Counted from the stretch's first letter, positions 34,537-55,055 are shown. The stretch: 64,000 nucleotides of DNA from an uncultured Gemmatimonadota bacterium (GCA_951812955.1 OX638340.1:2496001-2560000), one strand, 5' to 3'. The notes: generated by a model not told the origin, from the letters alone. Made by a program: numbers and translations.

Positions 34537-34613
<77 letters not shown>

Positions 34614-34623
34614 TTGAAAGCCG

Positions 34624-34800: not shown

Positions 34801-37869
<3,069 letters not shown>

Positions 37870-37921
37870 GCTCCAATTTATGTCGTCGTTCTCTCATTCC
37901 ATGTAATTGCCAACCCATTTC

Positions 37922-38040
37922 TTCCGGTGGCGATAGCGGAGGGGAAACACCTCTTCCCATTCCGAACAGAGTAGTTAAGCCCTCTTGCGCCGATGGTACT
38001 GCTTGGGTGACCTTGTGGGAGAGTAGGACGCTGCCGGGGG
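37922..38040 (+). rRNA. rrf: 5S ribosomal RNA.
   Basis: It contains CCGAACAGAGTAGTTAAGCC…GCGCCGATGGTA…GGGAGAGTAGGACGCTGCC, which aligns with the bacterial 5S consensus. Confidence 0.9.
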
Positions 38041-38147: not shown

Positions 38148-38822
38148 TTACGCGGCGGTGTTTACAATGCGTCCGTCGAAGAGGCGGATGATCCGGTGGG
38201 CGTGATCGGCCAGAACCTGGTCGTGGGTCACCATGATGATGGTCGTGCCCGCCTCGTTGAGGCCGTTTAGCAGTTCCATGACCTCCGAGCCGTTGGCAGA
38301 ATCCAGGTTACCCGTCGGCTCATCCGCCAGGATCAGCTTGGGATTGCCGATGACCGCCCGCGCCACGGCTACGCGCTGTTGCTGGCCGCCGGAAAGCTGC
38401 TGCGGGAAGTGATTACGCCGGTGGGGGATCTGCATGTGGTCCATCGCCGCATCCACCCGTTCCTTGCGCTCCTGCTTGGACGTGCCCAGGTAGATCAGCG
38501 GAAGCTCGATGTTCTCGTAGACGGTCAGTTCGTCGATCAGGTTGAAGCTCTGGAACACGAAGCCGATGTTGTTCTTGCGCAGATTGGCTCTTTGCCGCTC
38601 GGAGTGGCCGGACACTTCCTGGTCCAGGAAATGGTATTCCCCGCCCGTAGGGTTGTCGAGAAGGCCGAGGATGTTGAGCAAGGTGGACTTGCCGCAACCC
38701 GACGGCCCCATGACCGCCACGAACTCGCCCTGGTCCACGGCCATGCTCACGTCGTTCAACGCCGTCGTCTCCACCTCTTCGGTCGCATAGAGTTTCTGCA
38801 AGTTGCTGGTCGCTATCATCAC
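38148..38822 (-). CDS. MacB/LolD-type ABC ATP-binding protein (cassette A).
   Basis: It has Walker A GPSGCGKST, the signature LSGGQQQRVAVARAV and Walker [12 protein letters not shown]. It is roughly 93 percent identical at the protein level to the ATPase at 45626-46297. Confidence 0.85.
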   Translation of the reverse strand: MMIATSNLQKLYATEEVETTALNDVSMAVDQGEFVAVMGPSGCGKSTLLNILGLLDNPTGGEYHFLDQEVSGHSERQRANLRKNNIGFVFQSFNLIDELTVYENIELPLIYLGTSKQERKERVDAAMDHMQIPHRRNHFPQQLSGGQQQRVAVARAVIGNPKLILADEPTGNLDSANGSEVMELLNGLNEAGTTIIMVTHDQVLADHAHRIIRLFDGRIVNTAA

Positions 38823-39014
38823 ACACCCCTTTTGCAGTTTATCGGTATGCGTCGCACCTTAATCATTCGACTTGTGTGCGATGCGCATTGTTTCGTCGCG
38901 ATGTTGTGCATGCTTGTAAATGCTCTGCTTCACTAAGTGTTCGAGTGAGGGCGAAGGCGATTCGTGGAAGGCGGTGCTCCAGGATCAACGCTCTCAATAC
39001 TGAAGTGAAGAAGT

Positions 39015-39509
39015 TCAATCCGTACTATCCGGCAAATTCACTCCAAATTCCTTGATAAACCGCTCAAAGAAACCGGCCGACCTGTATTCCAACAGCACGT
39101 TTACAGGTTCTCCATCCATGCCCGATATGCCGAGCGGCTTTTCTCCCAAGAAAAATTCCAACCCAAGACTATCCACTTCCGGGTAACCGGATGACCGAAT
39201 AATCCACGCCGTGTCGACGACACCAGTTGCGTTCGAATGGACTCGAAGCAATACTTCTCCTTCGTTGATGAACTCGGGCGGAAGCGCTACGGTTAATGGC
39301 ATTAATGGTATTTCCCCATTTGAGCTCTCATCCTTGGAACGGAGAGTGTCTGATTGTCCTGTGCTATCCTGTTCCAGGTCGGTCATCGTCGTATCTATTA
39401 CAGTTTCGCCTTCCCGGTTCACATCGTCCTTTCCTTCACATGCCGTGTGACTCAGGATGAGGAAAAGCGACACCAGCGCGCATAGACTGATCACAGTCTT
39501 TTTTACCAT
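39015..39509 (-). CDS. Small secreted/lipoprotein with a TonB-C-like domain (cassette A).
   Basis: It has a signal peptide (VISLCALVSLFLILSHTAC). The C-terminal domain ALPPEFINEGEVLLRVHSNATGVVDTAWIIRSSGYPEVDSLGLEFF…GEPVNVLLEY fits the TonB C-terminal pattern. Confidence 0.65.
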   Translation of the reverse strand: MVKKTVISLCALVSLFLILSHTACEGKDDVNREGETVIDTTMTDLEQDSTGQSDTLRSKDESSNGEIPLMPLTVALPPEFINEGEVLLRVHSNATGVVDTAWIIRSSGYPEVDSLGLEFFLGEKPLGISGMDGEPVNVLLEYRSAGFFERFIKEFGVNLPDSTD

Positions 39510-39651
39510 TTGTTGAGTCATCGACCTTGATCCTCCAGATTGCGACGTTTCCAGTCTATCGGTGGAATACCGGTTGTCCCGCTCAGAATCCATGGTCTTC
39601 GACGTATTTGGCATCAGACCGTAGCCCGGCACCGGCCGGCGTCTATATCGT

Positions 39652-40540
39652 CTACCGGCCCGTCACTTCGATTCGATTCCGGATGCCACGCGTGTAAGTC
39701 AGATGCCCGCGTCGGTCAATCCAGATCCCTTCGACGTGAGGCAAATCATCCAGTAACCGCTTTGAATTCTCGACTCCCATGACGTACGTCGCAGTCGCCA
39801 GGGCGTCCGCCGTCATGGCGTCCGGGGCGATGACCGTGGCGCTGAGCACGTGGTTCGATGAAACCCCCAGCCGTGGATTGAGAATGTGAGCGATACGAGG
39901 GCCCTGGTGCAGTCTATAGTTCTCATAGTCTCCTGCCTTCGCAATGGCCTCGTCTTCGAGTTCGACCATGGCGCATAGTGCATCCATCCGAGCGGTATGG
40001 TGAACGTATCCCGATGCGCCACAGGCGAGTAAGCTCGAGCCATCACAGGGCAAAGATGTCTCCTCCGGCCGAAACCAGGCCACATCGGACCCGGTGGTCC
40101 CGCAACGCCCCGACCGCCCGATCCACCATCTTGCCGATCTCCCTGATCCCGCCATCGGCTTCGAGGGCGACGAGCAATCGAACGTTGTTGCACACGGGAC
40201 AACGAAGATCCTCCTGTACCTCGTAAACGTACCCTACAGGATCGCCCTGTTCACCGAAAATCACGTAGCGGTCATATTCCCGAAAGTCCTCGTGCTTCCG
40301 GGATTCGGCCATGTGGAACGTAACCGAAACAAACTCCGAAACTGTCGGTTCATCGAGCGGTGGAAACAGGTTGGACATGCCGGCTAGCTCGTTTGACATC
40401 CTGTAAAGCGACGGGTCGGATCCGACTACATCGGTTCCGCCGGATCCCATGAGATAGATGAGATTCACGGCCACGACTACGGTGCCTGCTCCGGCGATCA
40501 ACACCACCGCCATTCGACTACGTTTCAAAAACTGCGCCAT
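39652..40540 (-). pseudogene. Decayed FMN-binding-domain::ApbE fusion, formed by an internal deletion plus a frameshift (two overlapping ORFs, 40043-40540 and 39652-40155).
   Basis: The first ORF begins like the FMN-binding protein at 50779-51396 (TM helix, …EDLRCPVCNNVRLLVALE). It then jumps at 'DGGI' into sequence that aligns with the middle of ApbE at 49708-50709 (GGIAKGYGLDRMAHVLRNRHIRCGLISAGGD versus GGIREIGKMVDRAVGALRDHRVRCGLVSAGGD). That ORF stops after DIFAL. The ApbE C-terminal half (…YENYRLHQGPRIAHILNPRLG…ADALATATYVMG…) continues in another frame. Confidence 0.65.
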
Positions 40541-40582
40541 AGGTAAGTCACCCGAATGGACGTCTGAAGAACGTCGGAAACG

Positions 40583-43027
40583 CTACTCGTACCTCAACGC
40601 TTCAACAGGATTCGACCGCGCCGCTTTGAGGACGTGTAGGCCGACCGTGGAGGCCGCTACGGCAAGAATGGCCAGGCCCACCAGGACAAAGAGCGCCGGG
40701 TTGGGCGCAATGCGATAGGCGAAGTCACGCAGCCAACTTTCCATGACGAGGTAGGCGATCGGCCAGGCGATGACGCTCCCCGCAATGGCCATGATCACGA
40801 ACTCTTTCGACAGAAGCTGTACAAGTTGCGCCCTGGTCGCCCCCAAAATCTTGCGAACGCCGATTTCCTTCGTTCGCTGGTGCACGGTGAGGGAGACCAG
40901 GTTGAATAGCCCCAGGAAGGTCAGCACAATGGCAAGCAACGCGCATATTCCGAGGAGCGTGCCAAGGCGTTCTTCAGCCAAATACAGCTGGTCTATATCG
41001 TCTTCGAGAAAGGAATAGACGAGCGGGATTTCCGGGTAATGGGATCTCCAGACGCTATTGAGGTCCTCGAGCGCGGAGGCCGTACTCCCAGGTTGCAGTC
41101 GAACGCTCATGTGTTCGCCAAAGGAACTGCTTAAGAATACCATGGGCTCGACGGGCTGGTAAAGAGAACGAAAGTGGGTGTCTTGAATCACGCCGACGGC
41201 TCTGCCGCGCTGGACGTACTGCGGTAAGACGATTTCGATCGTCTTGTCCAGGGCCACTTCAGCGGAACTCCATCCCAGATGCCGGACGGCCGTTTCATTC
41301 AGGACTACCTCGAATACGGCGAACGGATTGAACATCCTCATATCTCTTGGCTTCAGATTCGAGCCCAGCACCAGGCTTATGTCCAGGGTCTCGAAAAAGT
41401 CGTGCTCCACGTTCACTATGCGGATAGACGAGGATACCGGCATATCGCTGTCGTCCCCGCGTCGAACCATGGTTTCCCCGATCATGCCCCTCCCCGGCGC
41501 GAGCCCGGGAACGTAATCCGACAGGGAGACGCCCTCGATGTACGGTGACCGCAGCAACTCGTTCTGGAATCCATCGGAGGATCTAGGATTAAACTGTTGG
41601 GAGCCTTCAGAAGAGCTTGATTCAATGGCCTCCACGAAGAATCCCGATATGAGGGGAACGACTATCACATTGGATTTTTCGAAGCCCGGAGGTTCGTTCA
41701 TCATGAACCGCAACTGGCTGTAGACCACACCCGTGCCGATGATCAGGATGGCGGAAAGGGCGAACTGGACCGTGATAAGAATACGCTTCACAAAGGGATA
41801 GTCGATCGCCTGGCTCAACCGGCGGCTAAGTGCGTCCATCGGCCGGTATCCAGACAGAACCATGGCCGGAAAACTCCCCGAGAATGCCCCCACGAGGACT
41901 GAAATGGCGATCAGACCAAGCCATATGTCGAGGTGTTGTATAAAACCCATGGACAGTGCCTTCCCAGTCACGGCGTTGAAGGCTGGAAGCGAAAGCCGGG
42001 CAAGCAGAACCGCCAGGACGAGTACCAGGCCTGAGATCATTACGGACCCGCTCAGATACTGCACGACAATACGTGAACGGTTCGCGCCGTACACTTTCAT
42101 TAGGCCCACTTCCTTCGCGCGGGCTGTCGACTGAACCATAGACAGATTGATGAAGTTGATGCAGGCGATCAGCAGCAGGAAAACGGCCCCCGTCATGAGG
42201 GTGTAGAGATAGGCCACACTGCTGTTCGCCTCGAGTTCGTTGAGTAGATTGGAACGCAGGTGAATCGCGGTCAGCGGTTGAAGGGAAAACCGGTAGTCCC
42301 GGATGCTCTCCCGGTTCACGGGCTTGATCTCGGTGTCGAAGTAAGCCTGGAACTTGGACGTCAGTTCCGGCACCAGGCTCTGATCGTGCAAACGCAGGTA
42401 CGTATAGTAGGTTGCGCTCCACCAGTTGTCCATGAACTGCAATTCCGTTCCGAAAGACAGGAACATGTCCGCGGTGAAATGCGTATGGCCCGGGAAGTCC
42501 TCCATGACGCCCGTGATGGTAAAGCTGTACGTGTTGTCCAGGCGCATCACCTCGCCCATGGGGTCCACTTCGCCGAAGTACTTCCTTGCCATCGATTCCG
42601 AGATGACCGCTTTGTTCTGCCCCTCCAATGCGGTGGCGGGATTCCCCTTGAGCAGGGGGATGGTGAAAACGTCGAATAGCGAAGGCTCGGTCCAGTAGAC
42701 CCGGTCTTCGTAGAACTCCCGGTCACCGAACCGTATAAGCCAAATGGCCCGAGTCGCCCGCATGCGGACAGCGCTTGCTACTTCCGGAAAGTTCTGTTTC
42801 AGCGTGGAAGCCGCTGCGCCCGGCGTGCGCGCGTTGTTGCCATTGATCAGCCGATAGACCTGCGGAGCGTACCTGTGGTGTGTATCGTAGGTCCATTCGT
42901 CCTTTATGTACAATAGCGTGAGTACGCACGCGGCCATGGCGATGGCCAGCCCCGTGACGTTGATGGTCGTATGGGATCTTTGCTTGAGCAGGGCTCTGAC
43001 GGCTATTCTGAGGTGGTGGGTGAACAT
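40583..43027 (-). CDS. MacB-like ABC permease with duplicated FtsX domains (cassette A).
   Basis: It is roughly 815 aa with the same topology and conserved blocks (TARAKEVGLMKVYGA, QRTKEIGVRKILGAT, C-terminal NPVEALRYE) as the permeases at 21794-24193 and 46447-48864. The chosen start MFTHHLRIAVRALLKQRS aligns with its paralogs. Confidence 0.85.
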   Translation of the reverse strand: MFTHHLRIAVRALLKQRSHTTINVTGLAIAMAACVLTLLYIKDEWTYDTHHRYAPQVYRLINGNNARTPGAAASTLKQNFPEVASAVRMRATRAIWLIRFGDREFYEDRVYWTEPSLFDVFTIPLLKGNPATALEGQNKAVISESMARKYFGEVDPMGEVMRLDNTYSFTITGVMEDFPGHTHFTADMFLSFGTELQFMDNWWSATYYTYLRLHDQSLVPELTSKFQAYFDTEIKPVNRESIRDYRFSLQPLTAIHLRSNLLNELEANSSVAYLYTLMTGAVFLLLIACINFINLSMVQSTARAKEVGLMKVYGANRSRIVVQYLSGSVMISGLVLVLAVLLARLSLPAFNAVTGKALSMGFIQHLDIWLGLIAISVLVGAFSGSFPAMVLSGYRPMDALSRRLSQAIDYPFVKRILITVQFALSAILIIGTGVVYSQLRFMMNEPPGFEKSNVIVVPLISGFFVEAIESSSSEGSQQFNPRSSDGFQNELLRSPYIEGVSLSDYVPGLAPGRGMIGETMVRRGDDSDMPVSSSIRIVNVEHDFFETLDISLVLGSNLKPRDMRMFNPFAVFEVVLNETAVRHLGWSSAEVALDKTIEIVLPQYVQRGRAVGVIQDTHFRSLYQPVEPMVFLSSSFGEHMSVRLQPGSTASALEDLNSVWRSHYPEIPLVYSFLEDDIDQLYLAEERLGTLLGICALLAIVLTFLGLFNLVSLTVHQRTKEIGVRKILGATRAQLVQLLSKEFVIMAIAGSVIAWPIAYLVMESWLRDFAYRIAPNPALFVLVGLAILAVAASTVGLHVLKAARSNPVEALRYE

Positions 43028-43040
43028 GATCGGGTGCTCC

Positions 43041-45503
43041 CTACGGTTCCAGGACAAGAAAGTTGACCGACTTGAAGACGCGCTGATCAGCGTGCCGGTC
43101 CGTCAGCGTCACGGTCAGCACATACTCCCCGGCTTCGAGATCCGTGGTGTCCATCGCGGTGTATTCAGCCTCTTCCGCTGAACTCCCCTCGCCTTCGAAG
43201 AAGGACATCACAGTCTGCATGTCGTCCGGCCTTCTGGCCCTGCGGTTCCTCAGTGCGGGCATGCCCAGGGGCGTGATTTCGTAAAGTGTCTCGTAGGAAG
43301 TGCGTCCGGCGTTGCCTAAATCCAGGTTGTACAATTCGTAGTAAACGTAAACGGGGTTTCCCCGAATGTAGAGCCGTCCCGGATTGGGCGTGATATTCAA
43401 CCCCTTGCGCACAAAGGGGCCCTGTACGCCTGACGGCGTGATGAGGGTGGCCAGCTTGAGATCGCTGATGAGCAGGTCGCGGCCGCGGTAGTCGGACAGC
43501 GTGACTGGCTTGCGATACACTCCGACCCGGCTCGTTGTCTCGTCCCGCACCTGGACTGCCAGCGTGAAACTACCCGACGGCGCGACAACGCTTTCAGGCA
43601 GGGTATACACCGGAACTTTCACGTTGCTTTCAGCCATCATACGCTTCGGCCTGTCGAAGGGACCGAAACCGAACTCGTGGGTGAACTGGGGGCTCATGGT
43701 CGAATCACGCAGGGTGACCAGGTGCGCGAGCCGGGTGCTGTTACCCCTGCCGTCCGAGACATCGCCGAACTGCCACACGGGGATGCTGTAGGACAGGTCC
43801 AGTTCCGTCGCGCCGTTGTCAGCCCTGTAGCTTACGGCGTCGAAGGCATATTCGAGTGGTTCTCCCCCGAAGTCGTGCAGGAATTCCTCGGGACTGCGCT
43901 TGATCAGGTTCTCGGCAACTCGTTGAGGATGATGGGTATCGTTTCGACGCATCAACTCGAAACCCGTGATGTCACCAAACGAATCCCCACCTTCATAGAT
44001 TGTCTGAAGTGGATAATCGAATTTCCCACCGCCCATCTGGTCCACGAAAAACAGTTCAAGATTATGCTGTACGTAAACCCAGCTTTCGACCTTGTACGAT
44101 TCTCCGACCAGACGTTTGAGTAACTCGAATGGATTGCTCTCCGACGAGCTCCCCCAGAGATCCACCGATCCCAAATCGAATCCCTGGAGCTGCATGATCT
44201 CCTCATCCAACAACGCCACCGGATCTCCCCTGCCCACCCGCAACACGTAGCCGGACTGCATATTCCGCACGCGTATTGCGTCCACGGCAGGAATCGCCGA
44301 CGGCTTGAAAACGGAAAAGGTGTTCCCATGCCTGCGCAGCAAGAAGTTGCTACGGTCATCCGGCGTACCGTATCGAACGTGAATCTCCCCGCGGCGGTCA
44401 AAGGGATACTGGCCCTCTGAGAAATGATTGCGGGCGTACAGTACGCGCCGGTAGTGTTCCACCAGGCGCTCGTTTTCGACGGTGGCCGGATTGGAATCCC
44501 GTGCGTTCCAGAAGGTCTGCCACAGCGCGTCGCGTTCCGGTCCTTCCACAGCCTCCCAGGTCTTCAATTCATCGGGAGGCGCGACATGTCGCAGGTCCCG
44601 GTACACCGCCTGCTCATCGGGATCGAGACCCGATATATAGGTCTCCAGGGCTTCCTGCAATCGATCGAACCCCCGTTCAGTCGAACCCGAAAGCATGCTG
44701 AACTGAAGCTGCAGGGTCCTGACCTCGTCCGCGACGGCATCTCCTGATTCTTCGACCAACTGTCCCAGGAGTTCAGCACCTATTTCGAACGCTTCGGCAC
44801 GAAGACACACATTGGTAAACCGCTCGAAGGCCCGACGGTGTTTGGGGTTTACCCGGTACTGGTTGAAATAGGCGGCTATCGCTTTTTCGTAGTCCGGCAA
44901 CGGGGGACTTTCATAACATCGTCCCAGTTGATAGTAGGCGTCCTCATGGGATGGATTCAGCTCTACGACCTTGAGGAAATACGTCCTGCCATCCCGGTCG
45001 CTGCCCACGATGGTATCTACTTTTTTATCATTCATGAAGGACATGCCCAGGTAGTACTGGGCGTCCGCGTTGTCCGGATCCAGGCGGATCGCGGTACGCA
45101 ACGCGTTGCGGGCATCCAGCTTTCTGTTTTGCAACTTCAGGTAGGTCTTCCCCAATCCGATGTGACCAGGCGCCCATTTTTTGTCCTGCCGCACTGCGCT
45201 CCTGAACGAACTCAACGCCTCACGGTAGTCGCCCAATTCATACCGCGCCATTCCGAGCCAGTAGTGGGCGGGCGCCGAATCCCCGTCAGCCTTGACGGCC
45301 ATTAGGAAGTACGGCAGCGCTTCCGCGTATCGTCCCTGTTGGTAAAGTGATTTGCCTTTTTCGTGGGCTGGCAGATCAATATCGGATACGGCCGATTGCG
45401 GCGGGGAAGTCCAGGTCTGGGAATGGCCGGGTAAACTCAGTGCAAGCGCGGCGATTGTAAGAAGCAGGCGGACGTACACGTAGTGCCTCTTTGGACGAAT
45501 CAA
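43041..45503 (-). CDS. Secreted TPR-repeat protein with a possible GWxTD-family C-terminal region.
   Basis: It has a signal peptide and several TPR units (AHYWLGMARYELGDYREAL, GHIGLGKTYL, AQYYLGMSF). It has a segment FDRRGEIHVRYGTPDD that resembles the (GWxTD)RG-x-IY-x-YG-x-PD block. The family call is from memory. Confidence 0.6.
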   Translation of the reverse strand: MIRPKRHYVYVRLLLTIAALALSLPGHSQTWTSPPQSAVSDIDLPAHEKGKSLYQQGRYAEALPYFLMAVKADGDSAPAHYWLGMARYELGDYREALSSFRSAVRQDKKWAPGHIGLGKTYLKLQNRKLDARNALRTAIRLDPDNADAQYYLGMSFMNDKKVDTIVGSDRDGRTYFLKVVELNPSHEDAYYQLGRCYESPPLPDYEKAIAAYFNQYRVNPKHRRAFERFTNVCLRAEAFEIGAELLGQLVEESGDAVADEVRTLQLQFSMLSGSTERGFDRLQEALETYISGLDPDEQAVYRDLRHVAPPDELKTWEAVEGPERDALWQTFWNARDSNPATVENERLVEHYRRVLYARNHFSEGQYPFDRRGEIHVRYGTPDDRSNFLLRRHGNTFSVFKPSAIPAVDAIRVRNMQSGYVLRVGRGDPVALLDEEIMQLQGFDLGSVDLWGSSSESNPFELLKRLVGESYKVESWVYVQHNLELFFVDQMGGGKFDYPLQTIYEGGDSFGDITGFELMRRNDTHHPQRVAENLIKRSPEEFLHDFGGEPLEYAFDAVSYRADNGATELDLSYSIPVWQFGDVSDGRGNSTRLAHLVTLRDSTMSPQFTHEFGFGPFDRPKRMMAESNVKVPVYTLPESVVAPSGSFTLAVQVRDETTSRVGVYRKPVTLSDYRGRDLLISDLKLATLITPSGVQGPFVRKGLNITPNPGRLYIRGNPVYVYYELYNLDLGNAGRTSYETLYEITPLGMPALRNRRARRPDDMQTVMSFFEGEGSSAEEAEYTAMDTTDLEAGEYVLTVTLTDRHADQRVFKSVNFLVLEP

Positions 45504-45625: not shown

Positions 45626-46297
45626 TTACGCGGCCTCCGTCACGATCCGTCCGTCGAAGAGCCTGATGGTCCGGTGGGCGTGGTCGGCCAGCGCCTGGTC
45701 GTGGGTCACCATGATGATGGTCGTGCCCGCCTCGTTGAGGCCGTTGAGCAGTTCCATCACCTCGGCGCCGTTGGCCGAGTCCAGGTTACCCGTCGGCTCG
45801 TCCGCCAGGATCAGCCTGGGGTTGCCGATGACCGCCCGCGCCACGGCCACGCGCTGCTGCTGGCCGCCGGATAGCTGCTGCGGGAAGTGGTTCCGGCGGT
45901 GGGGGATCTGCATGTGCTCCATCGCCGCGTCCACCCGTTCCTTGCGCTCCTGCTTCGACGTGCCCAGGTAGATCAGCGGCAGTTCGATGTTCTCGTACAC
46001 GGTCAGCTCATCGATCAGGTTGAAGCTCTGGAAGACGAAGCCTATGTTGGCCTTGCGCAGGTTGGCGCGCTGCCGCTCGGAGTGGCCGGACACTTCCTGG
46101 TCCAGGAAATGGTACTCCCCGCCCGATGGATTGTCGAGGAGACCGAGGATGTTGAGCAGGGTGGACTTGCCGCAGCCCGAGGGTCCCATGACCGCCACGA
46201 ACTCGCCTTCGTCCACGGCCATGGTCACATCGTTCAGCGCCGTCGTCTCTACCTCTTCGGTCGCGTAGAGTTTCTTGAGATGTTCTGTCCTGATCAT
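45626..46297 (-). CDS. MacB/LolD-type ABC ATP-binding protein (cassette B), a near-identical paralog of 38148-38822.
   Basis: The motifs are the same. DNA identity to the cassette-A ATPase is high from about codon 10 to the stop and ends abruptly at both gene ends. The gene has backbone-like GC and sits at the edge of low-GC DNA. Confidence 0.85.
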   Translation of the reverse strand: MIRTEHLKKLYATEEVETTALNDVTMAVDEGEFVAVMGPSGCGKSTLLNILGLLDNPSGGEYHFLDQEVSGHSERQRANLRKANIGFVFQSFNLIDELTVYENIELPLIYLGTSKQERKERVDAAMEHMQIPHRRNHFPQQLSGGQQQRVAVARAVIGNPRLILADEPTGNLDSANGAEVMELLNGLNEAGTTIIMVTHDQALADHAHRTIRLFDGRIVTEAA

Positions 46298-46446: not shown

Positions 46447-48864
46447 TCACTCATACCTGAGCGCATCTACCGGGTTCAACGGTGCTTCTTTTGTAACATG
46501 GAAGGCAATCGTAGCGATGATTACTAACAGAATCCCCATGCTTACCAAGATGTAGAGGCTAAGGGGTGGAGAAACTCGATATGCGAAATCTTGTAACCAA
46601 ACGGCAGTAACCAAGTACGCCAACGGCCACGCTACCAGATTGGCGATCGCTGCCATAACTACAAACTGTCTAGACAGCAACTGAGTCAATTTCATAACTG
46701 TAGCACCCAGGGTCTTGCGTATGCCTAATTCCTTCGTTCTCTGTTTTGTGGTCAGGGAGACCAGGTTGAAAAGTCCCAGGAATGTCAAGATAGTAGCTAA
46801 GATGGTACAGACACCTATAAGCGAACCTAGACGTTTCTCCGGTACGTAAAGTCGATCAATATCGTCCTCCAAGAGGGAATAGATAAATGGAATTTCAGGA
46901 AAATAAGACTGCCAGGTAAGATCTAGGTAACTTAACGCAGATTCCATTTTCCCATCCTGAAAGCGCACCATCATGTGTTCGCCATTACCGTTCGTGAAAA
47001 CCATCGGTTCAACAGGCTGATAAGACGACCGGAAGTGGGCATCCGCAACGACACCTACAACCCTGCCTCGTTGGGTGATCTGAGGGTATACGATATCTAT
47101 CGTCTGGTCTACTGCTGACACTGGAGAAGTCCAACCTAGGTGGCGTACTGCCGTTTCGTTGAGAACAAGCTCGATTACGGGCAAAGGCCCAAAAGTCGAA
47201 TATGTAGCAAGACTCCTGTGCCTCAAAAAGCGTCCGTGTACCAGCTGTAAACCCAGTGTGTTTATGTAATCGTGCTCAACGCCCACAAATCGTACGGATC
47301 TGGAATTCCTCAGACTGTTTCCTGCCCGAGTTCGAACCATCCCATCACCCATTGTACCACGGGCAGGTTCAAGTGCCGGCACATAAGTTGAGAATGAAAC
47401 GCTGAGTACATCTGGCGATCTCAACATATCGTTTTTGAATCCGCTAGGTGGAACTAGTATTCCGCCTGGGAAGAAGCCTGTTATCAGGGGTACATTGACT
47501 ACATTTGATTCGTCAAAACCCTGGGGTTTGGTCAACATGTATTGAATCTGGATGTAGACCACGCAGGTGCTGATAATCAGAATAGTGGAGAGAGAAAACT
47601 GGATGATGATGAGCATCCGTTTCACCAGTGGAAAGTCCACTGAATGGCTGATTCTGTTTCCAAGAGAAAAGAGAGGGTGTACTCCTGACATAACCAAAGC
47701 CGGAAATCCTCCTGAAACGACTCCAACGATTATCGCAACGACAACTATCCCAAGCCAGATTCCAAAGTCTTCAGTAACGCCAAAAGAAAGCGTTTTACCT
47801 GTCAGCCAATTAAATGATGGCAGTGCAAGATAGGTCAAAATGAGAGCTAAAAACAAAACCAACATCACCATGGTTAAGGATGCAATCATATGCTGCCTGA
47901 TAATCTGAATTCGATCAGCACCGAAAATCTTAATCAAACCCACTTCCTTCATCTGATCAGCCGAATGAACCATAGACAGATTGACAAAATTGATTGAAGC
48001 GATGAGCAACAAGAAGATCGCACCTGAAATGAGCGCAAAGATGTAACTCACACTGCTATTCACCTCGAGTTCATTCAAAAGGCGGGAACGAAGGTGAATC
48101 TCCGTTAGTGGTTGAAGTATGAAACTATACTCCCGGATCCACGCGCTGTTGCTAGGTTTTACCGTTGATTCAAAATACCGCTGAAACTTGTCTTCGAGAA
48201 TTGAAGCCTGGTTACCTTCGTTCAACCGGACGTAGGTGTAATAGTCGGGACGCGACCAGTTGTCAATGTAGGATAGTTCATTGCCGAAACTCAGGAAGAA
48301 CCCAGCCTCGAAATGGGAGTTGACCGGGAAATCCTCCATTATCGCGGTAACGGTAAAATCCCATGTGTTGTCGGCTTGCAACACCTTACCGATGGGATCT
48401 TCCTCGCCAAAGTACTTTCTGGCGACTGACTCTGATATAACGACCTTGCCTATGCCATCCAACGCGTTGGTTTTGTTCCCCTTTACAAGTGGTATGGTAA
48501 AGACATCAAACAAGGAGGCTTCGGTCCAGTATACCTTATCTTCGTAAAAAGCACGATCACCGTACTGCATTAGCCAGATGGCCCTGGCCGCCCTTAAACG
48601 AACAGTACTTACAACTTCAGGAAAGTTCAGCTCAAGGGAACCTGAGGCGGCACCTGGAGTTCGGGCATTGGTGCCGTCAATCAATCGGAAGATCTCGTTG
48701 GCGTGTTCGTGGTGAGAATCGTATTTCAGTTCTTCCTGGATATACATCAGGGTTAAAATACACATAGCCATCCCGACAGTTATTCCGCTGATGTTTAATA
48801 TGGTATTGGATTTCTGCTTTAATAGTGCACGGGTGGAGATTTTCAGGTGGTGGGGTAGTTCCAT
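46447..48864 (-). CDS. MacB-like ABC permease with duplicated FtsX domains (cassette B, low-GC).
   Basis: It is 805 aa with the same architecture and conserved blocks (SADQMKEVGLIKIFGA, QRTKELGIRKTLGAT, NPVDALRYE). Confidence 0.85.
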   Translation of the reverse strand: MELPHHLKISTRALLKQKSNTILNISGITVGMAMCILTLMYIQEELKYDSHHEHANEIFRLIDGTNARTPGAASGSLELNFPEVVSTVRLRAARAIWLMQYGDRAFYEDKVYWTEASLFDVFTIPLVKGNKTNALDGIGKVVISESVARKYFGEEDPIGKVLQADNTWDFTVTAIMEDFPVNSHFEAGFFLSFGNELSYIDNWSRPDYYTYVRLNEGNQASILEDKFQRYFESTVKPSNSAWIREYSFILQPLTEIHLRSRLLNELEVNSSVSYIFALISGAIFLLLIASINFVNLSMVHSADQMKEVGLIKIFGADRIQIIRQHMIASLTMVMLVLFLALILTYLALPSFNWLTGKTLSFGVTEDFGIWLGIVVVAIIVGVVSGGFPALVMSGVHPLFSLGNRISHSVDFPLVKRMLIIIQFSLSTILIISTCVVYIQIQYMLTKPQGFDESNVVNVPLITGFFPGGILVPPSGFKNDMLRSPDVLSVSFSTYVPALEPARGTMGDGMVRTRAGNSLRNSRSVRFVGVEHDYINTLGLQLVHGRFLRHRSLATYSTFGPLPVIELVLNETAVRHLGWTSPVSAVDQTIDIVYPQITQRGRVVGVVADAHFRSSYQPVEPMVFTNGNGEHMMVRFQDGKMESALSYLDLTWQSYFPEIPFIYSLLEDDIDRLYVPEKRLGSLIGVCTILATILTFLGLFNLVSLTTKQRTKELGIRKTLGATVMKLTQLLSRQFVVMAAIANLVAWPLAYLVTAVWLQDFAYRVSPPLSLYILVSMGILLVIIATIAFHVTKEAPLNPVDALRYE

Positions 48865-49707
48865 AACTGGCCTACAGATACTTAGTAAATGGTTCTAAGA
48901 GGGTTGTGATTAACGTCGAAGGGGCAGTTGAAAGTCTATAACTGCCTGTACGTTTAAACTCGTCCTCCGGTTTGATCAGCCCCAGACGTTCGCCGAGTGT
49001 TTTGGACTCGTCCACCACTGGCATTCAGCGAGGAGAGCATTTCCGTTGTCGGTGCGTGGAGCGTCGTTTGTTTTTTAACCTTGATGAATTCAATACCCAG
49101 ACGAAGTCGGTCAATCAACTCTTCCAACTGCTTGATTTGAATAGGCTAATAGAGGAAGTCACGGCGAAGGCTTCACTGGCAATATCGCGACTTTGATTCA
49201 GGTAGTTAATGTTGTCGTACGCATCTTAGTCTCCATGTGCGCTGTCAGGTTGGGTCTGTGACGGATTTTGTGTTACTGACTTTATCATGTTAAGGGCACT
49301 TTGTCTTCGTACATGATGATGAACTTGCTGGTGGCGGCCGTCCAGTTGGCGATGGGCCGTGTCTACCTTCGGGCCAGGTAGAGCAGTTTCCTGGCTACCC
49401 CGTCGGTGGGGAAGGCGCCGCCGCGCTATGGTCACCCCCAGTCTGCATGAGCACGTTCACCGCCCGTTACAATTCTGCTTCACATTGCATGGCGGCCAGC
49501 AATAGACTGGCAAAAGACGGTCAAAGGACAGGCGTAAACTTGTCGCTCTGAGTGCTATCCTTTACATAAACCTCTTCGACTCAGTCGTCTTCCACGGCTT
49601 CTTTATTCAGTCGACGTTTTCATCAAGCCCTTTAGATCCTCGTCGGTCTGTCTTGAAGCTACCGTGTATTTAACACCGCTCCCTTGTCATGAAGTACGAC
49701 CCACTCG

Positions 49708-50709
49708 TTAATTGACAATCTGCAATCTATTCTGGATCCCTCTTGTAAAAATAAACTGTCCATGCTGATCAATCCAGATCCCCTCGACGTATGGCATATC
49801 GTTCAGCAATCTCTGAGAACTTTCGATACCCATAACATAAGTCGCTGTGGCAAGCGCATCCGCTATCATTGCGTCGGGAGCGATAATCGTGGCGCTATGC
49901 ACGTGATCCGTCGAAGTCCCAAGTCGAGGATTGAGTATGTGTGTAATACGGCGACCTTGATTGATTTTGTAGTTTTCATAACCACCCGACGTCGCAACCG
50001 CCTCATCTTCGATTTCGACTGTGGCGCACAATGTATTGGGATGGTATGGAGACCGGATACCAATACGCCAAAGACGTTCAGGTTCTGGCCTTCCCATGGC
50101 AAGAACATCCCCACCTGCAGATATCAACCCGCATCTAATGTGGCGGTTTCGTAATACGTGAGCCATTCGATCCAATCCGTAACCTTTTGCTATTCCGCCA
50201 AAGTCTACCCCATAACCAGACGAAGCAATTCGTACTTTCTGTTCTTGCACTTGCAACTGATTAAAGTCTACCAGTTCGAGCATTTGCCGTAAGCTTCGAC
50301 TTGACGGATCACAATTATAAAATCCCCAGTGGTACATAATCGGTAGAATTGTCACATCGAAGGCACCATCTGTAATCTCGCCGATTCGTCTTGCTGTAGT
50401 CGCGACCTTGATAAAGTGGGGTGTTACGCCATGCCAAAGCCCATACATGTTGTTTACATGCGTAAGTTCACTGGTATTACGATAGAGGCTTAGCAGGCTG
50501 TCAATTTGAGCTAAAGCATCGAAGGCATCATAAATTGATTCTTTACTGTACTCGCATTCCTTGATTACAAGTTCTACTTTCGTCCCCATATGAATCTGAT
50601 GACGACGAACAAGCCTTTGCTTGTCTGACAATCCTGCGCCAAAATTGTATGGCACAAGTAACATTGCCGATGAAAGGCCGACCGATTTTATGAAATTGCG
50701 TCGCTTCAT
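49708..50709 (-). CDS. apbE: FAD:protein FMN transferase ApbE (flavin transferase), with a Tat/lipoprotein-type signal.
   Basis: It has an N-terminal MKRRNFIKSVGLSSAML signal. The ApbE family blocks are present (HMGTKVELVI…, GAFDVTI…, VDFGGIAKGYGLD, ISAGGDV, ATSGGYENY, PRLG, ADALATATYVMG). It is 333 aa. Confidence 0.85.
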   Translation of the reverse strand: MKRRNFIKSVGLSSAMLLVPYNFGAGLSDKQRLVRRHQIHMGTKVELVIKECEYSKESIYDAFDALAQIDSLLSLYRNTSELTHVNNMYGLWHGVTPHFIKVATTARRIGEITDGAFDVTILPIMYHWGFYNCDPSSRSLRQMLELVDFNQLQVQEQKVRIASSGYGVDFGGIAKGYGLDRMAHVLRNRHIRCGLISAGGDVLAMGRPEPERLWRIGIRSPYHPNTLCATVEIEDEAVATSGGYENYKINQGRRITHILNPRLGTSTDHVHSATIIAPDAMIADALATATYVMGIESSQRLLNDMPYVEGIWIDQHGQFIFTRGIQNRLQIVN

Positions 50710-50778: not shown

Positions 50779-51396
50779 CTAACCTCGATGGATATGCCTA
50801 AGTCTATTGAGAGCATCAACAATATGAATCGAGCTTTTGGTAGCACCTGTGATTCCGTCGATATTTTCGCCTAATACGTAGAAATGTAGGTTCGGTTTCG
50901 ACTTAAATTGCCTCAGAAACCTCGTTTCATCCTCAACAGATAGTGGTTCACCGGAGAGTTCAAGGGGTTCAAGCACTCTGATATCATGGAGCCGACCCAA
51001 GTCATCGAGTGCGACGAGCATTCGGACGTTATTGCAAACAGGACATTTGAGATCCTCCTGTATTTCGTAGACGTAGCCAACAGTGTCGATTCGTTCGTCA
51101 AACACCACATATCGATCGTAACCTCTGAATTTCTCGTGTTTGCTAGAATAGCTTTCAGAGAAAGCGGATATAGTGAATTCCCTTAAGATACGATCGTCAA
51201 GTGGTGGGAATATGTCGGATGAAGTAATCGAACCACTTCCCGATCCCAAGTTCGACACGTGTGAGTAAATCACATCGTCATCACATGAATGTCCGGATAA
51301 GTAGACTATATTGACCACAGCAATTACTACTCCGGTTATAAGAAACATGGTTCTTTGAATGAGTTTGAAATTTCGCATACTACAACCGAACTCCAT
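50779..51396 (-). CDS. Membrane-anchored FMN-binding domain protein (NqrC/RnfG/NosR-type FMN_bind), the predicted flavinylation substrate of ApbE.
   Basis: It has an N-terminal TM helix, a CPVCNN element and the flavinylation-type motif IDGITGATKSS near the C-terminus. Its 5' end lies 70 nt after the apbE stop. Confidence 0.75.
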   Translation of the reverse strand: MEFGCSMRNFKLIQRTMFLITGVVIAVVNIVYLSGHSCDDDVIYSHVSNLGSGSGSITSSDIFPPLDDRILREFTISAFSESYSSKHEKFRGYDRYVVFDERIDTVGYVYEIQEDLKCPVCNNVRMLVALDDLGRLHDIRVLEPLELSGEPLSVEDETRFLRQFKSKPNLHFYVLGENIDGITGATKSSIHIVDALNRLRHIHRG

Positions 51397-51515: not shown

Positions 51516-51911
51516 TTATCTAAGGCGGAAGCTCATTGGAAAGTAGAATTGCGCAGATATAGGCTTTCCTTCCTTAGTCGCTGGCTTGAAAATCATCATT
51601 CGTGCTTGCGACAGTGCAAGACTATCTAGTTCTGGATGGGTCGACGATTCTATGATCGAAACAGATTCCACCGTGCCATCTGCCTTAGATCTTAAGAGAA
51701 GTACAACATCGCCTTCATTGCTGTACTTATCCTGTGGCGTGGGTCTAAACAATAGTCGTGGAGACGTATCCCAATCACCCACTTTAGCTATAACTTCAGT
51801 GTCAACTTGGGTTTCTTCCACCGGCACACTATCGTTCTCTACATTTCTGTCGTTACTGCAGGAGATGACTAACGAAAAGAGTACAATCTGGGACAGGCTG
51901 AATCGAAGCAT
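51516..51911 (-). CDS. Lipoprotein with a TonB-C-like domain (cassette B).
   Basis: It has the lipobox LVISC. Its C-terminal domain reads EGDVVLLLRSKADGTVESVSIIESSTHPELDSLALSQARMMIFKPATKEGKPISAQFYFPMSF. Confidence 0.65.
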   Translation of the reverse strand: MLRFSLSQIVLFSLVISCSNDRNVENDSVPVEETQVDTEVIAKVGDWDTSPRLLFRPTPQDKYSNEGDVVLLLRSKADGTVESVSIIESSTHPELDSLALSQARMMIFKPATKEGKPISAQFYFPMSFRLR

Positions 51912-52022
51912 TTGTGGAGCCCTTTCTGTCATATGAGGTCGATTTCTGAACGCGAGGTAAATTCTGATTCATGTTCTAACTTTCAATGTGATTCAAAATC
52001 ACCAGTATAAGTTAAAACCTGA

Positions 52023-53771: not shown

Positions 53772-55055
53772 CTAACAACTTCTACCACCATTACAGTAAC
53801 AACCTACATAGCCCCACACATATGCATCCCCACAGTCATCATAATAACTACAATATACGCGATGGGCCAGGACCGCATAGGCAAAGGAGAAGGGCAACGC
53901 GCACTGCAACCCCACGTGGACGATTCGATCGAGCATCCAGACTATCACGGGTAGGGCTGGACCGGATGCCGGAACCAGACCCCAAGAGGACAGGAGCGTG
54001 CCGGGTTTCGTGATTGTCCACATCGGCGCGAGGATGAGGGCCAGGATGAATCCGGCCTCGATAATCTGGAGGCGTATGCGCTGTTGCTGGCTCGCCACGA
54101 AACGCTGGGCAATCAGTAGGCATCCTGTTAAGATAACAACGAGGAGAGGAAACATTGGAACGGGAATGGGCTCAACTATGCGGACGACGAACTGCGCAAT
54201 CTCATTATTCCAACCATGGGTGATGCTCAGTAAGTAGATCGAATGTAAGACTATCCACACAAAGAGAGGCGTCAGGATGAACAATGCTTTTTTTCGTAAC
54301 CATTCTCCAAAGACAGACGAACTTGGAAAAACAGTTAATATCTGAAAGATAAGAACAGTTTCCAGGATTGTTGCTAATACGACGATGTATATACTGAGCG
54401 ATAGTAACCAAACCGGCCATCCTGCGATCATGGGATGAAAGGCAGGAGACGATGTGAGCGCCGTAGCGAGGAAGAGCAACGCGCATCGAAAGGCGATGAC
54501 GTTTAGATGACTGCGGAATCCCATCCAAGTACCAAAACCTAACAGCACGATCGGGAAGATCAGAAAGGGTCCTCTTTGGAACCAGGTCATCTCCGCGACA
54601 CCCATCACAATCTCCTGCTGATCAACCTGTAGGGTGTAAGGTACCTCTTCGATCTCCTCAAGTGTCATGATACCGGTATGTATCCGATCTTCGCGAAGCC
54701 AGACGATTTCGATACGTTCTCCGGGTTGACTTTGCAAACGTGCCTGGAAATAGGCTTCTGGTCGTGATCTCAGGTCGATTCCATTTACCGATATGATCCG
54801 GTCGCCCGACTGTATTCCTGCCAGGTCGGCCGGACTTCCGTTCTCGATCTGTACTGCGATGATACCTTCGTCTTGGCGAATCCGGACGAGATGAAACCAC
54901 GTACCTTCCTGTAGATTGCTAACGGCGCTCTTCGTCAACCCCGGCGTTTGTATCATCTCGCTACCAAAAAATTGAATGCCGGGCGACCAGTGTTCGATCT
55001 GCGTGAATCGAACAAGTGTCCACGCCACCAGACCCAATTGCATGCATAGCAGCAA
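53772..55055 (-). CDS. Polytopic membrane protein with a PDZ domain.
   Basis: It has an N-terminal TM helix. The PDZ domain reads GIIAVQIENGSPADLAGIQSGDRIISVNGIDL. It is followed by roughly 6 predicted TM segments with no HExxH, and it is low-GC. Confidence 0.6.
   Translation of the reverse strand: MLLCMQLGLVAWTLVRFTQIEHWSPGIQFFGSEMIQTPGLTKSAVSNLQEGTWFHLVRIRQDEGIIAVQIENGSPADLAGIQSGDRIISVNGIDLRSRPEAYFQARLQSQPGERIEIVWLREDRIHTGIMTLEEIEEVPYTLQVDQQEIVMGVAEMTWFQRGPFLIFPIVLLGFGTWMGFRSHLNVIAFRCALLFLATALTSSPAFHPMIAGWPVWLLSLSIYIVVLATILETVLIFQILTVFPSSSVFGEWLRKKALFILTPLFVWIVLHSIYLLSITHGWNNEIAQFVVRIVEPIPVPMFPLLVVILTGCLLIAQRFVASQQQRIRLQIIEAGFILALILAPMWTITKPGTLLSSWGLVPASGPALPVIVWMLDRIVHVGLQCALPFSFAYAVLAHRVYCSYYDDCGDAYVWGYVGCYCNGGRSC

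What the first reader, a model, noticed from the sequence alone, without database searches (positions are those of the whole stretch)
38148..43027. Second, backbone-GC copy of the same cassette, in which the FMN-binding gene and apbE are fused by a deletion and then frameshifted
Cassette A has the same order (permease, FMN_bind, ApbE, TonB-C lipoprotein, ATPase). ORF 40043-40540 starts like the FMN_bind protein. At ...LVALEADGGI it switches into sequence colinear with the middle of ApbE (…RVRCGLVSAGGDIFAL) and stops. The ApbE C-terminal half continues in another frame (39652-40155). The FMN attachment threonine motif and the ApbE N-terminal half, including the signal peptide, are missing. This looks like gene decay of a native copy that coexists with an intact, low-GC copy 6 kb away. 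It gives a natural knock-out comparison for the function of the system.
Basis: seen in the sequence. Interest (0 to 1): 0.65.

Follow-up and report, generated by a model that had tools for sequence, protein, structure and literature searches.

The report
Dead flavoprotein genes beside intact transporter
Two neighbouring genes, one for a flavin-carrying protein and one for the enzyme that attaches the flavin, have been deleted into each other and further broken; this is a genuine but ordinary pseudogene, inside a locus that seems to make and export cysteine-rich peptides and is losing parts strain by strain.

Summary
On the minus strand, 40540-39652 is a remnant of an FMN_bind gene and an ApbE gene. 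There are three lesions, not two. About 0.83 kb is deleted, which fuses FMN_bind codon ~134 in frame to the middle of ApbE. A GGA→TGA nonsense mutation lies at 40045-40043. A 4-nt GGAT tandem duplication at 39982-39989 shifts the frame.

It is not an assembly error. An independent metagenome contig (L001) carries the same three lesions and is 99.8% identical across them.

- Gene order differs between the two cassettes.
- The low-GC copy B is not obviously foreign. It sits at the same place, next to EF-G, in a more distant Latescibacterota relative. There it has the same low GC and a divergence similar to EF-G.
- L001 has the pseudogene but no B at this locus.
- A third strain (L016) has a complete B and no cassette A.
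- B in this window is damaged too. It has lost its thioredoxin-like gene and peptide precursor, and its adaptor gene is a remnant.

Intact relatives show what the cassette is. It encodes cysteine-rich leader peptides, a thioredoxin-like protein, an RnfG-like flavoprotein with ApbE, and a MacB/ADOP ABC exporter. That combination was absent from the flavinylation literature I searched. The pseudogene is one of several erosion events.

The parts
40138..40540 (-). Remnant of FMN_bind_A. It keeps the N-terminal TM anchor and the first half of the RnfG/NqrC-like domain, including the CPVC motif, and ends at ...LVALEADGGIRE.
   Evidence: tblastn to FMN_bind_B (E 3e-31). 74-87% aa identity to intact orthologues P0002-P0004. 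Alignment A2 shows window-specific changes at nearly invariant P74 (to H) and G86 (to E).
40127..40137 (-). 11-nt island (TCGGCAAGATG) between the two alignment gaps. It matches ApbE codons 'IGEM' with one mismatch. It marks either the boundary between two deletions or junction filler.
   Evidence: MAFFT alignment with L007, L003, L002 and L008.
40046..40126 (-). ApbE middle remnant (VDRAVGALRDHRVRCGLVSAGGDIFAL), read in frame with the FMN_bind remnant.
   Evidence: 80-87% nt identity to intact orthologues.
40043..40045 (-). TGA nonsense codon. Intact orthologues have GGA/GGG (Gly) here.
39986..40042 (-). ApbE remnant after the stop, still in the fusion frame (WLELTRLWRIGIRSPYRSD).
39982..39989 (-). 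GGAT-GGAT tandem duplication. It is a 4-nt insertion relative to all intact orthologues and gives a +1 frameshift.
   Evidence: window-only insertion at 39989-39986.
39652..39984 (-). ApbE C-terminal remnant in the shifted frame (DALCAMVELEDEA...EVTGR plus stop).
   Evidence: Pfam ApbE profile positions 180-265 of 266. 89% aa identity to L007.
40583..43027 (-). perm_A. An intact 814-aa duplicated MacB/FtsX (ADOP-like) permease.
   Evidence: Pfam MacB_PCD + FtsX. NCBIfam ADOP and DarB-like. Full-length 86% aa identity to L007; dN/dS 0.145 against L001.
39015..39521 (-). p168. A small signal-peptide protein with a weak TonB_C-like stretch. The ORF runs up to 39632, but L007 has a stop there and the L001 gene call is 168 aa.
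38148..38819 (-). ATPase_A. An intact ABC ATPase, MacB/DarD-like.
   Evidence: Pfam ABC_tran. NCBIfam DarD-like, 277 bits. dN/dS 0.017 against L001.
43041..45503 (-). 820-aa TPR protein between the two cassettes. Its N-terminal part is very divergent between strains.
45626..46297 (-). ATPase_B. It has high GC3 (0.81) although it sits next to low-GC genes, and is 93% aa identical to ATPase_A.
46447..48864 (-). perm_B. An intact 805-aa MacB/ADOP-like permease, 55% aa identical to perm_A.
48953..49601 (-). Remnant of a HlyD-family periplasmic adaptor gene in cassette B. It has internal stops and a frameshift and covers only aa 105-297 of the L008 homologue.
   Evidence: tblastn with the L008 MFP. 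Pfam and NCBIfam results for that MFP.
49708..50709 (-). ApbE_B. Intact, with a twin-arginine signal (MKRRNFIK).
   Evidence: Pfam ApbE, 242 bits, profile positions 1-263 of 266.
50779..51378 (-). FMN_bind_B. Intact, 199 aa, with a TM anchor, the CPVC motif and the DGITGAT motif.
   Evidence: Pfam FMN_bind, 23.3 bits. AF2 model and Foldseek hit to RnfG 7zc6_G (E 1e-4, TM 0.51-0.54) and to NqrC.
51516..51932 (-). TonB_C-domain protein of cassette B.
   Evidence: Pfam TonB_C, E 1.4e-10.
52023..53735 (-). DUF7790 protein of cassette B (weak match to the LIC_10091-family).
53772..55055 (-). Chimeric ORF. It joins the N-terminal sensor half (PDZ + TM) of a histidine kinase to the last 26 codons (53852-53775) of a Cys-rich precursor peptide. 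It is the scar of a 4.8-kb deletion.

Best explanation
Window 40540-39652 (minus strand) is a non-functional remnant of the FMN_bind-ApbE gene pair of cassette A. The genome is from Candidatus Latescibacterota.

What is shown:
- About 0.83 kb was lost. It ran from the middle of the RnfG-like FMN-binding domain to ApbE codon ~180, leaving an in-frame chimera. Short sequence similarity at the first junction (GGAG(G)ATC) suggests microhomology-mediated deletion.
- A Gly codon then became TGA.
- A GGAT duplication shifted the frame.
- The product cannot carry flavin, because the attachment threonine is gone. It cannot transfer flavin either, because the ApbE N-terminal half and export signal are gone.
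- The lesions are real and inherited, since a second strain shares them.

What is inferred:
- The loss is part of piecemeal erosion of an accessory locus. It is not a consequence of redundancy with copy B.
- In intact relatives the cassette encodes one or two ~80-aa peptides with a conserved leader and a hypervariable core of 6-8 cysteines. It also encodes a membrane-anchored thioredoxin-fold CxxC protein, DUF7790, a TonB_C protein, a MacB/ADOP permease, the CPVC-containing flavoprotein with its ApbE, and sometimes an adaptor and an ATPase.
- I read this as a system that folds secreted cysteine-rich peptides oxidatively in the periplasm and expels them with a MacB-type pump.
- In the window's lineage cassette A has no precursor, Trx-like gene or DUF7790. 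The flavoprotein and ApbE would therefore have had nothing to act on and decayed. The permease and ATPase stay under purifying selection, possibly as an export or immunity function.
For: Lesion map.

Independent copy: L001 has the same deletion junction, TGA and duplication, with 2 differences in ~880 nt. Both differences are non-synonymous at conserved residues: G→E in the window, and C→F in the CPVC motif in L001.

Intact orthologues span the gap: L002-L009 and L017.

Erosion elsewhere:
- L011/L012 have an independent deletion of the FMN_bind C-terminus plus ApbE, with the permease kept.
- L007 has a broken ATPase.
- Cassette B in the window has an adaptor remnant and a 4.8-kb deletion that removed the Trx-like gene and the precursor leader. 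The 96%-identical strain L016 still has both.
- L016 lacks cassette A entirely.

Transporter genes are constrained: dN/dS is 0.145 for perm_A and 0.017 for ATPase_A.

Nature of the cassette: precursor alignment; Trx-like proteins; RnfG/NqrC fold; DarBCD/MacB/ADOP similarity.
Against: The rest of either genome is unseen, so another intact copy or precursor gene could exist elsewhere.

The pseudogene segment is far less diverged from L001 than the synonymous sites of the flanking genes. It has 2 differences per 880 nt, against dS 0.10-0.24 in the flanks. The locus is therefore a recombination mosaic, and 'purifying selection since pseudogenisation' is not cleanly shown.

Excess substitution at conserved positions in the remnant is only about two-fold (12/279 against 18/814).

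The peptide-folding and export function is inferred from gene content alone. No member has been studied, and no electron acceptor or donor for the flavoprotein is evident in the cluster.
Confidence: 0.85

Rival explanations
1. Redundancy-driven decay. The A pair became dispensable because the intact B pair in the same genome supplies the flavoprotein and the flavin transferase. The A permease now works with B's products.
For: The two cassettes are adjacent in the window. B's FMN_bind and ApbE are full length with all motifs. perm_A and ATPase_A are intact and constrained.
Against: L001 has the identical pseudogene, but HK-RR-RR sits in place of B. A and B proteins are only ~50% identical, so cross-function is not a given. 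L011 lost the pair with no sign of a second cassette on a 29-kb contig. B itself lacks a precursor and a Trx-like gene in this genome.
Confidence: 0.2
2. Assembly or sequencing artefact. On this view the deletion, the stop and the frameshift are all errors.
For: None beyond prior suspicion. Read data are not available.
Against: All three lesions are base-for-base identical in an independently assembled short-read contig that differs from the window by 2-9% in flanking genes and carries different neighbouring genes. The lesions are an 834-nt gap, a substitution and a non-homopolymer 4-nt duplication. None of these is a typical error type.
Confidence: 0.02
3. The chimera is a functional new gene. 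For example, it could be a membrane-anchored half-domain that keeps the CPVC motif and acts as a regulator or a thiol-redox protein without flavin.
For: The ORF 40540-40043 keeps its start, TM anchor and CPVC motif. It is 98% identical in L001. The segment is unusually conserved between the two strains.
Against: The break falls in the middle of the predicted beta-sheet domain. L001 has replaced the first Cys of CPVC by Phe, and the window has changed two nearly invariant residues. The high identity also covers the clearly dead ApbE tail, so it reflects recent shared ancestry and not constraint.
Confidence: 0.05
4. Recoding. On this view TGA read-through or selenocysteine, plus a programmed +1 frameshift, produces a working ApbE-like protein.
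For: The remnant after the stop stays homologous in frame for 18-19 codons.
Against: Even with both events bypassed, the product lacks ApbE residues 1-~180, the export signal and the flavin-attachment motif. Orthologues have an ordinary Gly codon at the TGA position and no duplication.
Confidence: 0.01

Closest known systems
RnfG / NqrC-type FMN_bind proteins flavinylated by ApbE (Rnf and Na+-NQR complexes; survey in PMC8238504)
   Same: The intact homologues have an N-terminal TM anchor and an RnfG/NqrC-like fold (Foldseek 7zc6_G E 1e-4; 4xhf). They carry the D-G-I-T-G-A-T motif and have an adjacent Tat-signal ApbE.
   Different: No Rnf or Nqr subunits are in the cluster, and none of the five transmembrane electron-transfer classes listed in that survey. 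The only partner membrane protein is a MacB/ADOP permease. The family has a conserved CPVC motif. The copy under study lacks the motif threonine and half the fold.
MacAB-TolC export of the disulfide-bonded enterotoxin STII (reviewed in PMC5985334); DarBCD darobactin exporter (NCBIfam NF038007/8/10)
   Same: A MacB_PCD + FtsX permease, a separate ATPase scoring 277 bits against DarD, and in L008 a DarC/MacA-like adaptor. A Sec-type leader peptide with cysteines lies next to the pump.
   Different: The permease is the duplicated single-chain ADOP type and scores below the NCBIfam cut-offs. The adaptor is absent from cassette A and is a remnant in B. No outer-membrane duct gene is seen. Dedicated redox genes sit inside the cluster, so housekeeping Dsb is not the only option.
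DsbD / thioredoxin-like / DUF3570 / DUF4266 flavinylation clusters (PMC8238504, section 'DsbD systems')
   Same: ApbE, a flavinylated extracytosolic protein, a thioredoxin-fold protein and a small secreted Cys-motif protein occur together in one cluster.
   Different: Here the flavinylated protein is of the FMN_bind/RnfG type, not DUF3570. There is no DsbD. The small proteins have hypervariable multi-Cys cores. An ABC exporter is an integral part of the cluster.
Ordinary bacterial pseudogenes and eroding bacteriocin loci that keep their export or immunity genes
   Same: Deletion, nonsense and frameshift lesions. Presence and absence vary between close strains. Transporter genes are retained under constraint.
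   Different: That the retained transporter gives immunity is my inference and has not been tested.

Membership tests
Pseudogene (dead remnant of FMN_bind + ApbE) | Clear homology to intact genes | tested here: met
   E 3e-31 and 1.4e-47 to the B copies. 74-89% aa identity to intact A-type orthologues.
Pseudogene (dead remnant of FMN_bind + ApbE) | Disabling lesions relative to intact orthologues | tested here: met
   An 834-nt gap, GGA→TGA and a 4-nt duplication, seen against L007, L003, L002 and L008. L017 also spans the gap.
Pseudogene (dead remnant of FMN_bind + ApbE) | Lesions are biological, not technical | tested here: met
   The lesions are identical in the independent contig L001. Reads were not available.
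Pseudogene (dead remnant of FMN_bind + ApbE) | Relaxed selection on the remnant | tested here: inconclusive
   Both window-versus-L001 differences are non-synonymous at conserved sites. Lineage-specific changes at invariant positions are 4.3%, against 2.2% in the permease. The numbers are too small to be decisive.
Pseudogene (dead remnant of FMN_bind + ApbE) | No functional product | not testable with these tools
   This needs transcript, protein and flavinylation assays.
FMN_bind (PF04205), ApbE-flavinylated | Domain detected, and the [S/T]GAT threonine motif present | tested here: not met
   Copy A has no Pfam hit and the motif region is deleted. Copy B meets both (23.3 bits against a cut-off of 22; DGITGAT; RnfG fold).
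ApbE flavin transferase (PF02424) | Full-length domain with an export signal | tested here: not met
   Copy A retains only profile positions 180-265 of 266 plus ~45 broken codons, and has no signal. Copy B is full length with RRNFIK.
MacB-type / ADOP ABC exporter | MacB periplasmic core domain and FtsX TM domain, with a cognate ATPase | tested here: met
   perm_A and perm_B have duplicated MacB_PCD + FtsX, and ATPases lie adjacent. The TIGR03434 ADOP score of 284 bits is below its cut-off of 622, so family-level membership is not established.
MacB-type tripartite pump | Periplasmic adaptor (MacA/HlyD) and an outer-membrane duct | tested here: not met
   Cassette A has no adaptor and B has only a remnant. 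An adaptor is present in L008. No duct gene is seen in any locus.
Recently acquired genomic island (claim about copy B) | Atypical composition, absence from relatives, and mobility signatures or a non-syntenic position | tested here: not met
   Low GC is met and absence from L001 is met. However, B has the same position, order and low GC in L013/L014. Its dS is similar to that of the flanking EF-G. No integrase or tRNA lies at its borders.
Leader-peptide / Cys-rich secreted peptide locus | Precursor genes with a conserved leader and a variable core next to maturation and export genes | tested here: met
   Met in 8 relatives. In the window only the last 26 codons of one precursor survive (53852-53775). 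Secretion and activity have not been tested.

The most novel reading that the evidence does not exclude
The intact version of this cassette is so far seen almost only in Latescibacterota, with distant CPVC-motif relatives elsewhere. It may be an undescribed use of ApbE-dependent flavinylation. In this reading a membrane-anchored RnfG-like flavoprotein with a CPVC dithiol works with a thioredoxin-fold CxxC protein to form or reshuffle disulfides in hypervariable, ribosomally made cysteine-rich peptides in the periplasm. A MacB/ADOP pump then expels the peptides. The repeated, strain-specific loss of the maturation genes with retention of the pump would be producer-to-non-producer turnover, as in bacteriocin loci.
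Probability: 0.3. Interest if true: 0.7.

Novelty: new member of a known kind. Interest (0 to 1): 0.4.

Why it matters
The pseudogene itself matters little. It is a clean, well-documented case of gene decay in an uncultured phylum, and it is useful mainly as an annotation warning: two ORFs here would otherwise be called as genes.

The context matters more. ApbE-flavinylated proteins have been catalogued with five kinds of membrane electron-transfer partners (PMC8238504). A MacB-type ABC transporter and cysteine-rich leader peptides are not among them.

If the cassette is a flavin-dependent peptide-folding and export system, it would add a function to extracytosolic flavinylation. It would also point to a family of disulfide-rich peptides in Latescibacterota.

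The three strain configurations give natural genotypes for asking which parts are needed for what. These are a complete B without A, an A remnant without B, and both cassettes damaged.

Tried and rejected
- Exact look-up of the two remnant ORFs found nothing. The first was later recovered through homology as P0001, which has a different start.
- A profile search of solved structures by sequence gave only chance-level MamM hits. The fold search was informative instead.
- ApbE in L010 looked truncated (229 aa) and was a candidate for a second decay event. tblastn shows it is intact and the gene caller picked a late start. Rejected.
- I suspected that a stretch of the gap in cassette B was the C-terminus of an IS256-type transposase. 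Pfam gave no hit. It is kept only as an unverified note. The gap is mostly an adaptor remnant.
- I tried to assign the kinase in L001 to one of the two kinase copies in L013, in order to reconstruct the deletion history. It is ~66% identical to both, so this was uninformative.
- A search of JGI metagenome contigs for the exact 26-nt deletion junction found no match.
- A homology search with the distant relative P0045 returned only itself.
- Literature searches for MacB/FtsX together with FMN_bind/ApbE, for DUF7790, and for Latescibacterota bacteriocins found nothing relevant.
- My first dN/dS run had frame and stop-codon bugs for p205 and the ApbE C-terminus. It was redone.

Full report
**1. 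What is there**

Between the 5S rRNA gene (37923-38039) and an EF-G gene (55615-57696), the minus strand carries two paralogous cassettes.

- Cassette A: a TPR protein (45503-43041), the MacB/FtsX permease perm_A (43027-40583), the region in question (40540-39652), a small signal-peptide protein (39521-39015) and an ABC ATPase (38819-38148).
- Cassette B: a chimeric kinase-like ORF (55055-53772), DUF7790 (53735-52023), TonB_C (51932-51516), FMN_bind_B (51378-50779), ApbE_B (50709-49708), an 843-nt gap, perm_B (48864-46447) and ATPase_B (46297-45626).

The gene order therefore differs between the cassettes.

Per-gene GC:

| Region | GC |
|---|---|
| Low-GC part of B | 0.44-0.48 |
| Cassette A | 0.50-0.61 |
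| Neighbouring core genes | 0.63-0.67 |

'Backbone-GC' for A is therefore only approximate.

**2.

tblastn with the intact B proteins finds three pieces:

- FMN_bind residues 59-177 at 40489-40136.
- ApbE residues 171-225 in the same frame at 40153-39986.
- ApbE residues ~226-332 in the next frame, down to 39661.

Pfam sees no domain in ORF 40043-40540. In ORF 39652-40155 it sees only the last third of ApbE.

I aligned the DNA with four intact orthologous loci.

- *Lesion 1.* 615 + 219 nt present in L007 are missing. Between the two gaps sits an 11-nt island (40137-40127) that matches the ApbE 'IGEM' codons with one mismatch. The first junction shows GGAG(G)ATC similarity between the two genes. 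This is either two deletions or one deletion with filler; I cannot tell which. The result is an in-frame chimera, ...LVALEADGGIRE|IGKM|VDRAVGALRDHRVRCGLVSAGGDIFAL.
- *Lesion 2.* The next codon is TGA (40045-40043), where all orthologues have a Gly codon. Homology continues in the same frame (WLELTRLWRIGIRSPYRSD). The stop is therefore a point nonsense mutation and not the frameshift.
- *Lesion 3.* GGAT is tandemly duplicated (39982-39989). After it, the ApbE C-terminus runs in the +1 frame to the stop at 39652.

Four things are lost:

- the second half of the FMN-binding fold, with the DGITGAT motif (alignment A2);
- the intergenic spacer;
- about 180 ApbE codons;
- the twin-arginine signal.

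**3. It is not an artefact**

A homology search with the chimeric ORF returned P0001, at 98% identity. Its contig L001 is ENA ERZ15614337 NODE_50, 173.7 kb, a short-read assembly.

L001 has the same junction, the same TGA and the same duplication, with two substitutions in about 880 nt. It is a different genome for three reasons:

- perm_A differs at 81 sites.
- The ATPase is 95% identical in nucleotides.
- The TPR gene is only 55-75% identical over most of its length, and the genes upstream are different.

Both substitutions in the remnant change conserved residues. The window has G→E in EDFRGYDRY. L001 has C→F in the CPVC motif.

**4. Organism and the normal state of the cassette**

A scan of species-representative genomes places the FMN_bind family in Candidatus Latescibacterota.

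The intact A-type arrangement in L002-L009 is DUF7790 - TonB_C - (TPR) - permease - FMN_bind (~196 aa) - ApbE (~330 aa) - (p168) - (ATPase). L017 is another intact A-type sequence that spans the deleted segment.

The family is very narrow:

- About 40 clusters in 5.8 billion sequences.
- Only two representatives below E 1e-30 in 1.84 billion.

More distant ~190-aa homologues keep the CPVC and GATK motifs. An AlphaFold model of the intact B protein has pLDDT 73.5, above 90 in the core. It matches RnfG (7zc6_G; E 1e-4; TM 0.51-0.54) and NqrC.

**5. What the cassette seems to be for (inference)**

Upstream of DUF7790, eight relatives carry two further elements.

- A membrane-anchored thioredoxin-fold protein with a CxxC motif.
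- One or two 78-82-aa ORFs. These have a conserved leader (…LNFAALGQW[DN]VPx[IV]G[VI][QE]EAxA) and a hypervariable core with 6-8 cysteines that ends in Cys.

The distant homologue P0045 also sits next to a Redoxin protein and a Cys-rich 86-aa ORF.

The transporter parts resemble MacB, ADOP and the darobactin exporter DarBCD. L008 has a DarC/MacA-like adaptor between ApbE and the ATPase.

MacAB-TolC is known to expel the Sec-exported, Dsb-oxidised peptide STII from the periplasm (PMC5985334).

I therefore propose the following sequence. The leader peptides are exported. They are oxidatively folded by the Trx-like protein and the flavinylated CPVC protein, with ApbE installing the FMN. The MacB-type pump then ejects them. 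None of this has been tested, and no terminal electron partner is visible in the cluster.

The broad survey of flavinylation clusters mentions no FtsX/MacB association. Its nearest analogue is the DsbD/Trx-like/DUF3570/DUF4266 cluster. Further literature searches found nothing on this combination.

**6. The pseudogene is one of several erosion events**

- (a) In both the window and L001, cassette A has no precursor, Trx-like gene, DUF7790 or strong TonB_C gene. L007 has all of them.
- (b) Cassette B's 843-nt gap is the wreck of the adaptor gene. It has stops and a frameshift and covers only residues 105-297.
- (c) Relative to L013 and to the 96%-identical L016, the window has lost 4.8 kb. That segment held the kinase C-terminal half, two response regulators, p173, the Trx-like gene and the precursor's leader. 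The last 26 precursor codons are now the tail of ORF 55055-53772.
- (d) In L011/L012 an independent deletion removed the FMN_bind C-terminus and all of ApbE but kept the permease.
- (e) In L007 the ATPase has an 8-nt deletion and is truncated.
- (f) L016 has a complete B and then runs from the TPR gene straight into the rRNA operon, so it has no cassette A at all.

The retained transporter genes look constrained. dN/dS against L001 is 0.145 for perm_A and 0.017 for ATPase_A.

**7. Is B a foreign copy?**

L013 and L014 carry a B-type cassette in the same order, at the same place next to EF-G, with the same low GC. Synonymous divergence of the B genes from L013 is 0.22-0.48, against 0.50 for EF-G. 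No integrase or tRNA lies at the borders.

B is therefore a resident allele of a hypervariable locus and not an evident recent import. Because L001 has the same pseudogene without B at this locus, redundancy with B is not needed to explain the decay. A second copy elsewhere in that genome cannot be excluded.

**8. Caveats**

- Only fragments of the related genomes are visible.
- The pseudogene-p168 segment is 99-100% identical to L001, while the flanks show dS 0.10-0.24. This implies mosaic recombination, which weakens any dating and any 'selection since loss' argument.
- The excess of changes at invariant positions in the remnant is only about two-fold.

**9. Verdict**

As a pseudogene it is ordinary. 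The surrounding cassette type appears undescribed and is the more interesting lead.

Noticed in passing
window 48953-49601 (-): The 'gap' between ApbE_B and perm_B is a degraded HlyD/MacA-type adaptor gene. It has internal stops and a frameshift and covers only residues 105-297 of the L008 homologue. Part of the remnant is shared with L013.
   Followed up: yes
window 53772-55055 (-), junction near 53855: Chimeric ORF. The PDZ + TM sensor half of a histidine kinase is fused in frame to the last 26 codons of a Cys-rich precursor peptide (CSYYDDCGDAYVWGYVGCYCNGGRSC). It is the scar of a 4.8-kb deletion that removed the kinase domains, two response regulators, p173, the Trx-like gene and the precursor leader. 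L016 and L013 still have these.
   Followed up: yes
window 38148-38819 and 45626-46297 (-): The two ATPases are 93% aa identical with synonymous difference pS 0.31. The permeases, FMN_bind and ApbE of the two cassettes are saturated (pS 0.74-0.80). ATPase_B has GC3 0.81 next to genes with GC3 0.43-0.51, and it is closest to the L008 ATPase (92.6% nt). This suggests gene conversion or replacement of the ATPase genes, or very strong constraint.
   Followed up: partly
window 38887-40686 compared with L001: The pseudogene and p168 are 99-100% identical between the two strains, while the flanking intact genes differ by 2-9%. A neutral remnant should not be the best-conserved part. Recombination mosaicism is likely but has not been shown.
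   Followed up: partly
window 19077-24193: A third MacB/ADOP locus in another low-GC stretch. It has an ATPase (19077-19769, -), a Trx-like homologue (19914-20597, +) in which the CxxC is replaced by HSPF, a TonB_C lipoprotein (20682-21176, +) and a permease (21794-24193, -). No FMN_bind, ApbE or precursor was found. Upstream lie two paralogous 624-aa proteins with ECF-sigma N-termini (24324-26198 and 26538-28412), plus DUF4932 and DUF2268/GldB-like proteins.
   Followed up: partly
window 49093-49441: A 349-nt stretch is absent from L013 and lies inside the adaptor remnant. One frame reads KLLYLARR*TRPIANWTAATSKFIIMYEDKVP, which reminded me of an IS256-type transposase C-terminus. Pfam gave no hit, so this is unverified.
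   Followed up: partly
L007 12639-13320: In the chromosome with the closest intact A-type cassette (OY762445.1), the ATPase gene has an 8-nt deletion and a truncated 3' end. Different lineages break different genes of the cassette.
   Followed up: partly
L011 2064-2492 and L012 2006-2434: An independent deletion in another Latescibacterota lineage. FMN_bind is truncated after residue 153 and ApbE is absent, with the permease still upstream.
   Followed up: yes
L013 1461-5622 and 15603-19752: Two paralogous PDZ-HisKA_3 kinase and double LuxR-type response-regulator triads flank the B-type cassette as ~4-kb direct repeats. They are a plausible substrate for the gain and loss of the cassette seen between strains.
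   Followed up: no
window 43041-45503 (-): The 820-aa TPR protein is 92-100% identical to L001 at its 3' end, but only 55-75% nt identical over the rest. It is ~59% aa identical to the L007 homologue. This marks the edge of the strain-variable region.
   Followed up: partly
window 32890-38039 (+): A complete rRNA operon (16S, tRNA-Ile, tRNA-Ala, 23S, 5S) lies directly next to cassette A. ORFs listed inside it are spurious.
   Followed up: yes
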